DNA of 64,000 bases. Origin: Magallana gigas (Eukaryota). A program made the position numbers. This document shows, piece after piece, positions 1 to 3,000 of the stretch (positions within the stretch are counted from its first letter, which is position 1; the number at the start of each line of letters is the position of its first letter). The DNA lies in the NCBI RefSeq assembly GCF_963853765.1, contig NC_088859.1:46624001-46688000 (forward strand), written 5' to 3'.

Positions 1-3000
1 AGACTCGCTCGACTCGTCCGAGTACTGATCGGAGTGAGCCCAGTACAAGCTGCTACTGGGTGGTTCCCTGAGGGTACAGTTGCTGGGTAGTTCCCTGACC
101 GTGCAGCCTGTGGTGTACATGGCTGTCTCGCTGAGCCTGCTGTTTGACGGACAGTGGTTCGTTGTGGTATGGCTGATCAGCTTGATGTGTGGTGATCACT
201 CAATCTCGACATGTAACATTGATTTCACAGACTGTTTTATGTACCTTGTTATATCCCCATAATAGAATAGCCATGTAGGGAAATAATTAGGCCTCTTTTA
301 ATTCCCATTTCATAATGATAAGACAATAATTGAATTTTGAAAGCTTCCAAACAGAAGATGCTTTCATAAGCTGGCTATCTTAATAATATGTGTCAAGTAA
401 CACATAATATGATTCATTACTCTAATGTTCTCTTTACAAAAAAAATTTTTTCCTTACTTTATGCAGATAAATAATGAGCATGTGCTGATGTTATCAATTT
501 CTTACCCAGTAAAGCATTGTCCCTCAAGTTAATCCAAAATGTCATACAGGTGCATTATCATTTCCAGGTAACAAAAGAAGTGAATGATGTTGGACTATAA
601 CAATGACTACACAACAGATATGCCCTGGGTGTGTCCCCTCTAGCCGGTGAATGATTAAGTGAGCCTGGGTGCTTATCTCAAACTCTGCTTCATGCTAATA
701 CACTTCTGGCCTGGGGGACAGGCTTTAGGTGGACCTATGTTACCTGAACAAAAATTGTGGGTCAGGTGTGAAAACTAATGTTGTCTTACCTTCAGATATC
801 TCTTTCGCTGTCGGTACATCCGAAACTGGGCCTGGGCCTTGATGATGCCATTTCTGACCAACAAGAACTTCTTCCTGTGAAAACAGGTATATAAACAAAG
901 TCAGAGGATTGTATTTCACAAAGAACAAAAATGCATTACGCAATCAAAAGAATTTCACTTAATTTTTTTGTTCAGACACTTGATTTGGAATGTGTCATTA
1001 ATAATTTGTTTTTGAAAAATAGGATTTCCGCAGGGCGTAGTTTCTGATCAAATTTAAGATAAAATACAAGCATTATGGCACCATATCATCTTATTTCCGT
1101 TATCATTTTATTTTCCAGTCAATTTGCCTCAATAAAGTTTATCTAATGTTTTGAATAGAAATAGTTCATGACAGTTTCTGAAGAATGACCTTGATCTTTC
1201 TGTGTTGATCAACAAAGATGGACCTATACTAGTACTGTGTGAGAGCTTAATTACCAAGTATACGTTTCATGTAGATAAGGTGACAAAACACTCTCATTTA
1301 CCTGTCTCTATAATGGTCACGCTTTGTTAATCATTGAAGTTAACAAATCTGCTGTTCTAAGATAATTGATAATTACTGATTGCAACATTCCAGGATATGT
1401 TTGTAAACTTTACGAGATAGTTTTGGAAATGTTCAAGTAAAAAAATAATTTAAACCACTTACCTTTTTGTTCAAGAACTATGATATTACTGTATCTAATA
1501 ATTCATGAAATATATAATAGCCTGAAATTGTGGGCATTCATACAAAATATCCCAAAAATTGCATGAACTATTTATTATGGATTTTTGATAACAGGTAGTT
1601 ACTGATAGGGAGAGCAGGTGTGACAGCGGGTCTCGTCATTGACTGAAGTAATATATACTTTTGTTTCTACTATCAATGCCTATTCAGTGTACAGACAATT
1701 CAATGGCAGCTGTCCGTATAGTATGAACAGCTACAATTGACTCTTGCATTGTTCTATTTCAGTTCTTTCAAATTGCATCATATTGTTGTGCAATGATTCA
1801 TCTTCAGATATATTGATGTAGTCTATCATACATATATCATATCATACATCTTTTATATTGAATTCCAGCATATGCATTGTGTTAATGAATTAAGTAATCA
1901 ATTGAAAACTAGTACTGATCATGAACGTAAAAAATACAATCCTCTAGCTTACATATGAAATACACATATTTACTGTATAGAGGGAAAAATTCATCCCCAT
2001 TTTTTAGGGTTTTTTTGCCCCTTTCACCCTCATTGTCAGTGGGTGAATTCAAGACTAGGTAAATTTGAATGCCTTAACTTATATCTGCTTTAACATAACT
2101 TTAACATAAGTTCAAGATGGGGCAAAACCGTTTGCAAGTGTATTTGGGTGAAAATAACATGGGGAGAAAGTAACCCTGTATACCGTAAACATTTAATTGT
2201 GACTAACATTGATCTACCGGTATTTCTCAAGGACTCAATCTATTTATTTTGTTTAGAATAATTTACTTATGGGAAAATAAGCTCAAACTAGCTAATCAAG
2301 GATGTCACAATGTACACTGGTAATGTTGTTATACAAGTGCTACAATACTGCTGAAGTAGTCTGGGGTTTTTTGTCAGACAGCATCTTTTTTATTCACATC
2401 TTACCTGGCTGGGGAGACAACATGCTTTTCATTGACATCTTACCTGATGGTAAAAAAACAACAACATGCATTTCAATGACATCTTACCTGGCTGCATATC
2501 TCCTGATTGCTCTTTGTAAACTGTGTATGGAAGTCTTTGCTCGCAGGAATTTCTTACGGGCCAAAAACATGCGTGAGCACTTTTGAATCCGCACGATAGC
2601 TTCATCCTGGATCTTCTTGGCCTCTTTGTCCAACACCTGTTCCAGACTCTCCTTCAGAAACACCTGTTGAAAAGAGTCAGATTCGGTCAGGCCACAATTA
2701 ACATAGGTCCAACACAGAGAATATTTCTCAGTGTCCTGAAACTTTGGTACAGTGTGATGGGGAATCTCAGAACACAGGGAGGAGTCATTATTCTCCCCCC
2801 ACTCACTGTCCTCCCACGTACTCTCAGAGTTTGTGTCAAAGACCTTGTTTACATATTCTGGGTCAGTATCACACCTGTTCCAGTTCTCAAGGTACTGAGA
2901 GTGTGAATGGTTAGCATAAATTCCTTGACCTGACATCTTTATAATGCTGTCCTTCCTATAAATCCTACTGCCAGAAAAAATCCCTCTCCACTTCCCTTAT

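What the first reader, a model, noticed from the sequence alone, without database searches (positions are those of the whole stretch)
2488..2996. Intronic ORF fused in frame to the converter/IQ exon: candidate 'headless' myosin XV isoform
Seen: upstream of the acceptor of the exon encoding VFLKES plus two IQ motifs, the intron stays open in the same frame for about 110 codons. It has an ATG in aaagATG context at 2936 and encodes an acidic, Ser-rich 91-aa peptide. A stop-free stretch this long in the one relevant frame is unlikely in AT-rich intron. Two upstream AG sites are phase 2 and cannot join the preceding phase-0 motor exon, so this is not a simple longer motor exon. Established: vertebrate MYO10 makes a motorless 'headless' isoform from an internal promoter. 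Inference: an internal promoter here yields a motorless IQ+tail protein with a new N-terminus that could act as a dominant-negative or scaffold. I know of no such report for invertebrate class XV myosins.
Basis: partly seen in the sequence, partly recalled or inferred. Interest (0 to 1): 0.68.

Follow-up and report, generated by a model that had tools for sequence, protein, structure and literature searches.

The report
Possible motorless myosin XV isoform
An open reading frame hidden in an intron of a class XV myosin gene runs straight into the next exon and is kept open in several related species, so it may start a motor-less version of the protein, but no transcript has yet been seen.

Summary
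On the minus strand, the 111 codons upstream of the IQ-exon acceptor (2664-2996) are stop-free in the exon's frame. The single in-frame ATG is at 2936 and gives a 91-aa acidic, Ser-rich peptide. This stretch is not ordinary intron: chance openness is about 7e-5 to 3e-4. Its GC (0.443) and 3-base periodicity (chi2 27.1) exceed every intronic control window and resemble real exons. The same ORF, with the same ATG, is open in four other sequence lineages (46-53% identity for the three deep ones). A neutral simulation gives 3e-4 to 1.2e-3 for that.

Against a coding reading: the residues evolve as neutral drift predicts, and within-population variability equals that of translated intron. The non-coding flank is equally conserved. 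Two frameshift alleles exist. None of the 45 ORF copies I read is spliced onward, and the two cDNA-like proteins both show the canonical motor-to-IQ junction.

Best reading (confidence 0.5): an alternative first exon from an intronic start, encoding a disordered N-terminus for a motorless IQ+tail isoform. Expression is untested.

The parts
2488..2663 (-). Canonical exon encoding the last converter strand (VFLKES...) and IQ motifs. It starts in phase 0 and ends two bases into a codon.
   Evidence: Sequence and ORF. Pfam IQ, E=1.4e-05. P0048 residues 679-738 map here at 98% identity. Predicted as one long helix with pLDDT of about 93-96.
2664..2936 (-). 91-codon in-frame extension from ATG 2936 to the acceptor. 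It is the candidate coding part of an alternative first exon and encodes an acidic, Ser-rich, predicted-disordered peptide.
   Evidence: GC 0.443 against an intron mean of 0.326, with 0 of 246 windows as high. Periodicity chi2 27.1, with 0 of 365 intron windows and 0 of 80 non-coding ORFs as high. Open with the same ATG in P0010, P0005, P0006 and P0007. pLDDT below 50 for residues 1-87.
2934..2936 (-). The only in-frame ATG of the open stretch (aaagATGt). It is invariant in all lineages aligned.
   Evidence: alignment column M21 is invariant.
2937..2996 (-). In-frame open but ATG-less stretch upstream of the start; putative 5' UTR.
   Evidence: 10 of the 13 codons next to the ATG are identical in the P0005 lineage.
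2997..2999 (-). TAA that closes the frame upstream.
2997..3076 (-). Conserved non-coding flank and candidate promoter region. It has 5 in-frame stops in the window, and the alignment with the P0005 lineage changes frame.
   Evidence: tblastn of P0041: in-frame match back to 3002, and a separate frame-shifted match at 3076-3044 with 8 of 11 identical, E=7.4, not significant alone.
2664..2666 (-). Canonical acceptor CAG. Q is invariant at this codon in all lineages.
2486..2487 (-). Donor GT of the IQ exon (CAG|GTAAGATG). The in-frame TAA inside it ends all unspliced ORF copies.
4560..4688 (-). End of the preceding motor exon (...YRIGATK|gtagg, phase 0). The intron to the IQ exon is 4559-2664, 1896 nt.
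   Evidence: The junction GATK|VFLKES is seen in P0001 and P0048.
757..876 (-). Next exon downstream (third IQ, KKFLLVRNGIIKAQAQFRMYRQRKRYLK). Any transcript from the extension would have to splice to it.

Best explanation
The last 273 nt of the 1896-nt intron before the IQ exon of a class XV myosin gene are the coding part of an alternative first exon.

Proposed mechanism:
- Transcription starts inside the intron, somewhere in about 2937-3080 (inferred).
- The first exon runs without interruption into the normal IQ exon. No acceptor is used, because the DNA is contiguous (shown).
- The normal donor at 2487 then joins the next exon at 876 (inferred).
- Translation starts at ATG 2936.

The product would have a fast-evolving, acidic, Ser-rich, disordered 91-aa N-terminus. 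It would continue with the last converter strand, the IQ lever and the MyTH4-bearing tail. It would lack the ATPase and actin-binding motor. Such a protein could still bind light chains and tail partners, so it would act as a competitor or scaffold for the full-length motor (inferred by analogy with headless Myo10).

Shown: the ORF, its exon-like composition and periodicity, and its retention with the same ATG in related lineages. Not shown: transcription start, splicing, protein and function.
For: 1. Open frame beyond chance: 3e-4 at local composition, 7e-5 at intron composition. 0 of 297 intron windows are stop-free.

2. Frame-specific structure. Stops per frame on the gene strand are 0, 3 and 15. 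Codon-position base composition gives chi2 27.1. That exceeds all 365 intron windows (99th percentile 18.0, max 25.2) and all 80 non-coding stop-free stretches of 60 codons or more (max 26.9). It lies within the exon range of 10.5-31.9.

3. GC is 0.443, against exons 0.477 and introns 0.322. 0 of 246 intron windows reach it.

4. The ORF is open with the same ATG in P0010 (90% identical in the extension), P0005 (53%), P0006 (47%) and P0007 (46%). All length changes are in frame, and tblastn aligns the P0005 lineage without any gap.

5. Under neutral evolution scaled to these identities, all four lineages stay open with P=3.1e-4 (intron equilibrium) to 1.2e-3 (local equilibrium). With the ATG also kept, P=6e-5 to 2.7e-4. 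Indels were not modelled.

6. Acidic, Ser-rich composition is kept. Net charge is -12, -11, -9, -10 and -6, and Ser counts are 12-17. The neutral expectation is -3.5 to -4.2 (sd 3.8) and about 10 Ser.

7. The AG sites upstream of the ATG are lost in the P0005 lineage, judged from its residues (inference). This argues against an upstream acceptor.

8. There is precedent in class X (passages of PMC6345916).
Against: 1. No transcript support. 0 of the 45 ORF-bearing sequences I read continues into the next exon. 28 stop at the donor's TAA, 15 read on into the intron and 2 are frameshifted, so all look genomic and unspliced. I read 45 of the 236 members of those 7 clusters. The two cDNA-like proteins show only the canonical junction.

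2. No residue-level constraint. Invariant columns number 34 of 89, against 33.3 expected with equal rates. Mean BLOSUM62 at mismatches is -0.81 to -0.51, against a neutral -0.70 (sd 0.25); the fraction positive is 0.28-0.30 against 0.28.

3. Within 15 near-identical sequences, variable residues are 8 of 91 in the extension, 7 of 66 in translated intron (Fisher p=0.79) and 0 of 59 in the IQ exon.

4. Codon-usage log-odds show no frame preference (0.049, 0.011, -0.033) and are below 12 of 13 real exon pieces.

5. The non-coding flank upstream of the ATG is about as conserved as the ORF.

6. Two frameshift alleles exist, P0008 and P0039, one contig each.

7. Ascertainment. The protein collection shows only ORFs that stayed long, so broken orthologues are invisible. 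With, say, 10 deep lineages sampled, the pairwise neutral probability (1.3e-3 to 5e-3) rises to roughly 0.06-0.2 before the ATG factor.

8. The TATA-like words sit 4-26 nt before the ATG, too close to serve it, and are not kept in P0007 (inference).
Confidence: 0.5

Rival explanations
1. Non-coding conserved intronic block with an incidental ORF. In this reading 2664-3076 is a slowly diverging or regulatory piece of intron, such as a splicing or transcriptional control region. Its frame happens to be open, and we see it open elsewhere only because the protein collection records long ORFs alone.
For: Residue changes, rate uniformity and polymorphism all match neutral drift. The flank with 5 in-frame stops is conserved as well as the ORF. 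Codon usage shows no frame preference. Frameshift alleles exist. No spliced transcript was found. The short-ORF search returned nothing, so broken copies cannot be counted.
Against: Neutral retention in all four lineages has P=3e-4 to 1.2e-3 without indels, and is lower still with the ATG kept. Codon-like periodicity and GC exceed every intronic control. The stop distribution of 0, 3 and 15 among frames is strongly uneven. Acidic, Ser-rich composition is kept beyond the neutral expectation.
Confidence: 0.3
2. Relic or lineage-limited exon. The stretch was, or in some lineages still is, a coding alternative first exon. In the window's species it is drifting, transcribed little or not at all, and free to lose its frame.
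For: Exon-like composition and periodicity are combined with neutral-like residue change and intron-like polymorphism. There are two independent frameshift alleles among near-identical sequences.
Against: The frame is intact in the great majority of copies seen. Intact forms lie on up to 69, 42 and 14 contigs each, while each frameshift allele lies on 1 contig. Both visible common indels are in frame. Periodicity should fade under long drift.
Confidence: 0.12
3. In-frame alternative 3' splice site. The motor exon (phase 0) joins one of the 14 in-frame AGs, for example 2765 or 2894. This would insert up to about 77-91 residues between the converter and the lever arm of a full-length myosin.
For: There are 14 phase-0 AGs, some with 14-15 pyrimidines in the 20 nt before them. 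The frame is open all the way.
Against: Both cDNA-like proteins use only the canonical acceptor. The residue before 2894 (Q, CAG) is R in two of three deep lineages, so that AG is probably not kept (inference). The conserved feature is the ATG and openness from it, not any internal AG. An insertion here would split the conserved converter strand GATK|VFLKES (established knowledge of myosin motors; inference).
Confidence: 0.05

Closest known systems
Headless myosin X (Hdl-Myo10) of vertebrates
   Same: It is a motorless isoform of a MyTH4-FERM myosin, made from a start inside the gene downstream of most motor exons, and it keeps the lever and tail. Passages of PMC6345916 say that the headless isoform begins at exon 20 and has its own 5' UTR transcripts. 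The abstract says it does not induce filopodia but localises to the plasma membrane.
   Different: It is class X, not class XV, and vertebrate. It is shown by transcripts and Western blot, whereas here nothing is shown beyond the DNA. In this window the new N-terminus is a 91-aa peptide encoded by DNA contiguous with the IQ exon, and essentially the whole motor is missing except the last converter strand.
Short Drosophila Myo15 isoform (PE protein, RE transcript)
   Same: It is an invertebrate class XV myosin gene with an annotated short isoform that escapes a gRNA aimed at the large isoforms (passages of PMC12237259).
   Different: PE is not recognised by an antibody to a mid-tail region but is recognised by one near the C-terminal MyTH4-FERM. 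It therefore starts far into the tail and would lack the IQ lever. It is not characterised, and it is not called headless in the passages I read. No sequence comparison was made here.
N-terminal isoforms of mammalian MYO15A (recalled, from no call)
   Same: Alternative first exons give different N-termini to a class XV myosin.
   Different: As I recall them, all keep the motor domain. Here the motor would be absent.

Membership tests
Class XV myosin (the host gene) | Motor domain closest to myosin XV rather than to other classes | tested here: met
   P0001, the cDNA-like protein 98% identical over the IQ exon, scores 815 bits to PDB myosin-XV 7udt_D. It scores 664 bits to myosin-VIIa and 601 bits to myosin-X. 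6 of 10 window exon pieces hit Pfam Myosin_head.
Class XV myosin (the host gene) | IQ lever followed by a MyTH4 domain | tested here: met
   IQ is found in the window exon. Myosin_head, IQ and MyTH4 (residues 922-1022) are found in P0048. The MyTH4 part lies outside the window.
Class XV myosin (the host gene) | SH3 and a C-terminal MyTH4-FERM tandem | not tested
   P0048 ends at 1576 aa with no such hits and looks 3'-truncated. The tail is not in the window, and proteins over 2000 aa could not be searched.
Headless (motorless) myosin isoform | ORF with its own start codon, in frame with the lever and tail, lacking the motor | tested here: met
   ATG 2936 and 91 codons are contiguous and in frame with the IQ exon. 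Only the last converter strand of the motor remains.
Headless (motorless) myosin isoform | Transcript starting from an internal promoter and spliced to the downstream exons | not testable with these tools
   No read, CAGE or transcript data were available. 0 of the 45 ORF-bearing database sequences I read is spliced onward.
Headless (motorless) myosin isoform | Protein product detected | not testable with these tools
   No proteomic data were available.
Protein-coding exon | Open frame retained across species | tested here: met
   Four other lineages are open with the same ATG. The neutral probability is 3e-4 to 1.2e-3. Ascertainment bias is unquantified.
Protein-coding exon | Purifying selection on residues | tested here: not met
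   Rate uniformity, BLOSUM pattern and polymorphism all match neutral expectation. True dN/dS could not be computed because no orthologous nucleotides were available.
Protein-coding exon | Codon periodicity and exon-like composition | tested here: met
   chi2 is 27.1, with 0 of 365 intron windows and 0 of 80 non-coding ORFs as high. GC is 0.443, with 0 of 246 windows as high.
Protein-coding exon | Host-gene codon usage in the right frame | tested here: inconclusive
   Log-odds are 0.049, 0.011 and -0.033 for the three frames, while 12 of 13 exon pieces score higher. The value is still above 99 of 102 intronic stop-free stretches. The training set is only 514 codons.

The most novel reading that the evidence does not exclude
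It makes a motorless IQ+tail protein with a lineage-specific, acidic, disordered N-terminus, selected for composition and openness rather than sequence. This would be the first headless class XV myosin that retains the lever, arising independently of vertebrate headless Myo10, and it would act as a regulator or scaffold for the motor's cargo.
Probability: 0.4. Interest if true: 0.6.

Novelty: new variant of a known kind. Interest (0 to 1): 0.45.

Why it matters
Class XV myosins build and maintain actin protrusions, and motorless isoforms can antagonise or re-route the motor's cargo. If real, this would show that headless isoforms evolved more than once among MyTH4-FERM myosins. It would also give a natural tool, a tail-plus-lever protein, for studying class XV function in a non-model animal. 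It is a clean example of an alternative first exon that is invisible to residue-conservation tests but detectable from frame retention, periodicity and composition. If not real, it is a caution: a long in-frame intronic ORF with exon-like statistics can still be non-coding.

Tried and rejected
- **Homologues of the peptide.** The 91-aa peptide alone was scored against 1.84 billion representatives. It gave 3 hits: P0008, P0005 and P0009. P0009 (E=2.5e-4) is a repetitive acidic, Ser-rich protein that I take for a compositional match.
- **Domains and look-alikes.** Pfam found only the IQ motif, nothing in the extension. The ESM Atlas gave no usable hit.
- **Structure.** AlphaFold2 on a 7-row alignment gave pLDDT below 50 for residues 1-87. 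The alignment is shallow, so this is only weak evidence of disorder.
- **Repeat or transposon origin.** There is no other copy of 2300-3400 or of the peptide in the window, and no tandem repeat.
- **Structured RNA.** No Rfam family was found in 1-21000.
- **Broken orthologues.** The 'shorter' length class returned nothing at all, so broken copies cannot be counted.
- **Annotated long isoforms.** The 'longer' class reaches only 2000 aa. A headless isoform of a protein of about 3000 aa would not be seen.
- **Residue-class test.** Low-degeneracy residues were invariant in 21 of 53 positions and high-degeneracy residues in 13 of 36. The test lacks power, so I drew no conclusion.
- **P0024 as evidence of a longer open frame upstream.** Rejected. 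Its W and L residues sit exactly where the window has stops, so it looks translated under another code.
- **TATA-like words before the ATG as a promoter.** Rejected as too close to the ATG, and not kept in P0007.
- **Literature.** Searches for 'headless' + 'myosin XV' (7 papers, 5 listed), 'headless' + 'myosin' + 'alternative promoter' + 'motor domain' (0), 'myosin' + 'motorless' + 'isoform' (24 papers, 15 listed, titles and abstract starts only) and 'unconventional myosin-XV' + 'oyster' (1, irrelevant) found no headless class XV report.
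Full report
**What is there.** The gene runs on the minus strand. The exon encoding VFLKES plus IQ motifs is 2488-2663, with acceptor CAG at 2666-2664 and donor GT at 2487-2486. It begins in phase 0. The preceding motor exon ends ...YRIGATK|gtagg at 4560, also phase 0, so the intron is 1896 nt. 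Upstream of the acceptor the exon's frame stays open for 111 codons (2664-2996) and is closed by TAA at 2999-2997. The only in-frame ATG is at 2936 (aaagATGt), which leaves 91 codons before the exon. The peptide has 16 D/E, 4 K/R and 12 Ser.

**Is the open frame more than chance?** Yes.
- Markov resampling gave a stop-free 333-nt frame with probability 3e-4 at local composition and 7e-5 at intron composition.
- 0 of 297 intronic 111-codon windows were stop-free; the mean was 7.5 stops.
- Long stop-free stretches are not rare in general: 7 of 100 codons or more occur in 38 kb over six frames. One in the single relevant frame, abutting an acceptor, is unlikely even after allowing for about 18 exons.

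Of 27 AGs in the stretch, 14 are in frame, and some have good pyrimidine tracts.

**The host gene.** Searched exon by exon, 6 of 10 pieces hit Pfam Myosin_head, 1 hit IQ and 3 hit nothing. A database protein from a 2744-nt contig (P0001, 802 aa) and its cluster mate P0048 (1576 aa, 4770-nt contig) map exon by exon onto 20106-757. They carry Myosin_head, IQ and MyTH4. They are closest to solved myosin-XV motors: 815 bits, against 664 for VIIa and 601 for X. Class XV is therefore supported for the motor, IQ and first MyTH4. The rest of the tail lies outside the window and was not tested. Both proteins show the canonical junction GATK|VFLKES. The candidate N-terminus plus IQ exon is contiguous DNA, and the downstream exons were left unjoined. 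The organism was not identified by any search.

**Related copies of the ORF.**
- The 170-aa stop-to-stop translation found 7 clusters among 16 candidates of 93-298 aa.
- It found 1 cluster (P0001) among 53 candidates of 264-2000 aa.
- It found nothing among proteins of 30-92 aa.
- The seven clusters hold 236 members. I read 45 of them.
- Of those 45, 28 end at the TAA inside the donor, 15 read on into the downstream intron through a variant of that TAA, and 2 are frameshifted.
- All therefore look like unspliced genomic ORFs called by a gene finder. None continues into the next exon.

**Lineages.** Besides the window type, four lineages appear. Identity to the window in the 91-aa extension and in the IQ exon is as follows:

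| Lineage | Extension | IQ exon |
|---|---|---|
| P0010 | 90% | 98% |
| P0005 | 53% | 83% |
| P0006 | 47% | 90% |
| P0007 | 46% | 86% |

All four keep the ATG and the open frame up to the conserved acceptor codon. Length differences are whole codons, and tblastn aligns the P0005 lineage to the window without any gap.

**Evidence from the window that this is exon-like.**
- GC is 0.443, against exons at 0.477 and introns at 0.322. 0 of 246 intron windows reach it.
- Stops on the gene strand fall 0, 3 and 15 in the three frames.
- A 3x4 codon-position table gives chi2 27.1. That is above all 365 intron windows (99th percentile 18.0, max 25.2) and above all 80 non-coding stop-free stretches of 60 codons or more (max 26.9). 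It lies within the range of real exon windows, 10.5-31.9.

**Evidence from comparison.** A neutral HKY-type simulation on a tree scaled to the observed identities keeps all four other lineages open with P=3.1e-4 (intron equilibrium) to 1.2e-3 (local equilibrium). With the ATG kept as well, P=6e-5 to 2.7e-4. Indels were not modelled. The acidic, Ser-rich make-up is also kept: net charge is -12, -11, -9, -10 and -6, against a neutral expectation of about -4 (sd 3.8).

**Evidence against a constrained protein.**
- Invariant columns number 34 of 89, against 33.3 expected if all sites evolve equally fast.
- Replaced residues are no more conservative than neutral drift predicts. Mean BLOSUM62 is -0.81 to -0.51, against -0.70 (sd 0.25).
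- In 15 of the 27 members of one cluster, variable residues are 8 of 91 in the extension, 7 of 66 in translated intron and 0 of 59 in the IQ exon.
- In 32 sequences, variable residues are 23 of 91 in the extension against 2 of 59 in the IQ exon.
- Codon-usage log-odds show no frame preference and lie below 12 of 13 exon pieces.
- The flank upstream of the ATG has five in-frame stops in the window, yet it is conserved about as well as the ORF in the P0005 lineage. There is a frame change further up.
- Two frameshift alleles exist, an 8-nt deletion in P0008 and a 1-nt change in a G-run in P0039, each on one contig. Intact forms, and two in-frame 2-codon deletions, lie on up to 69, 42 and 14 contigs.
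- The collection shows only ORFs that stayed long, so broken orthologues cannot be counted. With about 10 deep lineages sampled, the neutral probability for some pair being open rises to roughly 0.06-0.2 before the ATG factor (my arithmetic).

**Other checks.** The stretch has no second copy in the window, no tandem repeat and no Rfam match. The peptide has no Pfam domain and no relatives beyond these lineages among 1.84 billion representatives. It has no Atlas look-alike. It is predicted without confident structure (pLDDT below 50 for residues 1-87), whereas the IQ exon is a confident helix (shallow alignment).

**Interpretation.** The frame, the start codon, the composition and the periodicity behave like coding sequence. 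The residues behave like unconstrained sequence. That combination is what a translated, disordered, fast-evolving N-terminal extension looks like. It is also what a lucky ORF in a conserved intronic block could look like under strong ascertainment. I favour the alternative first exon (0.5). The alternatives are the incidental ORF (0.3), a decaying relic (0.12) and an in-frame alternative acceptor (0.05). The mechanism beyond the DNA (intronic start, splicing 2487 to 876, translation from 2936, competitor or scaffold role) is inference.

**Comparison with what is known.** Headless Myo10 is the functional model. Passages of PMC6345916 state that it begins at exon 20 and persists when exon 19 is deleted. 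For class XV, passages of PMC12237259 describe a short Drosophila isoform that lacks at least the first two thirds of the protein. Motorless class XV products in invertebrates are therefore not unheard of, but one that retains the IQ lever was not found in four literature searches.

**What stayed unchecked.**
- Read, CAGE and proteome data.
- Orthologous nucleotides, and so dN/dS.
- Proteins over 2000 aa.
- The closed collections metagenome contigs and viral contigs.
- Supplementary files of the papers.
- The remaining 191 of the 236 cluster members.

**Verdict.** This is a real, non-random, cross-lineage feature and a reasonable candidate for a motorless class XV isoform. It is unproven for want of any transcript evidence.

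Noticed in passing
window 2404-2495 (minus strand): The donor word CAG|GTAAGATG of the IQ exon occurs three times in tandem, with GT at 2487, 2443 and 2404 (spacing 44 and 39 nt). The two downstream copies are possible alternative 5' splice sites. Both lie beyond the in-frame TAA of the first donor. Tandem Repeats Finder did not report them.
   Followed up: partly
proteins P0008 and P0039 (relatives of window 2664-2936): Two different frameshift alleles of the extension occur among near-identical sequences. One is an 8-nt deletion after DSSL, the other a 1-nt change in the G6 run. Each lies on one contig and runs on in the frame that has only 3 stops.
   Followed up: partly
protein P0024 against window 2937-3113: This database ORF has W or L exactly where the window has five in-frame stops. 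It was probably called under a code that reads TGA as a residue. ORF lengths in the collection therefore cannot always be taken at face value.
   Followed up: partly
window 2577-2906 (+): The antisense strand of the same stretch also carries a 109-aa stop-free frame with 2 stops in 111 codons over 2664-2996. I made no search with it.
   Followed up: no
window 56152-57255 (+) and 61753-62610 (+): Two tandem paralogous ORFs match Pfam Tmem26 (E=5e-44 and 3e-44), suggesting a duplicated neighbouring gene on the other strand from the myosin.
   Followed up: partly
window 39941-40528 (+) and 40955-41449 (-): A 195-aa ORF is made of three copies of a unit of about 60 aa. Next to it is a 164-aa ORF that reminds me of the end of a retroelement reverse transcriptase (recalled impression). 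Neither has a Pfam match.
   Followed up: partly
window 5111-5331 and 27987-28294: The same ORF of about 55 aa (CLFGR.TVEIDTP...) appears on both strands at each of two places. This is a palindromic repeated element present at least twice, once inside a myosin intron.
   Followed up: no
window about 21740-21870: A long GA/CT dinucleotide run is seen as SLSLSL and RERERE translations.
   Followed up: no
window 33123-33482 (+): A 119-aa ORF has weak TPR matches below Pfam's cut-offs (E=0.0017-0.0067). It is possibly an exon of another gene.
   Followed up: no
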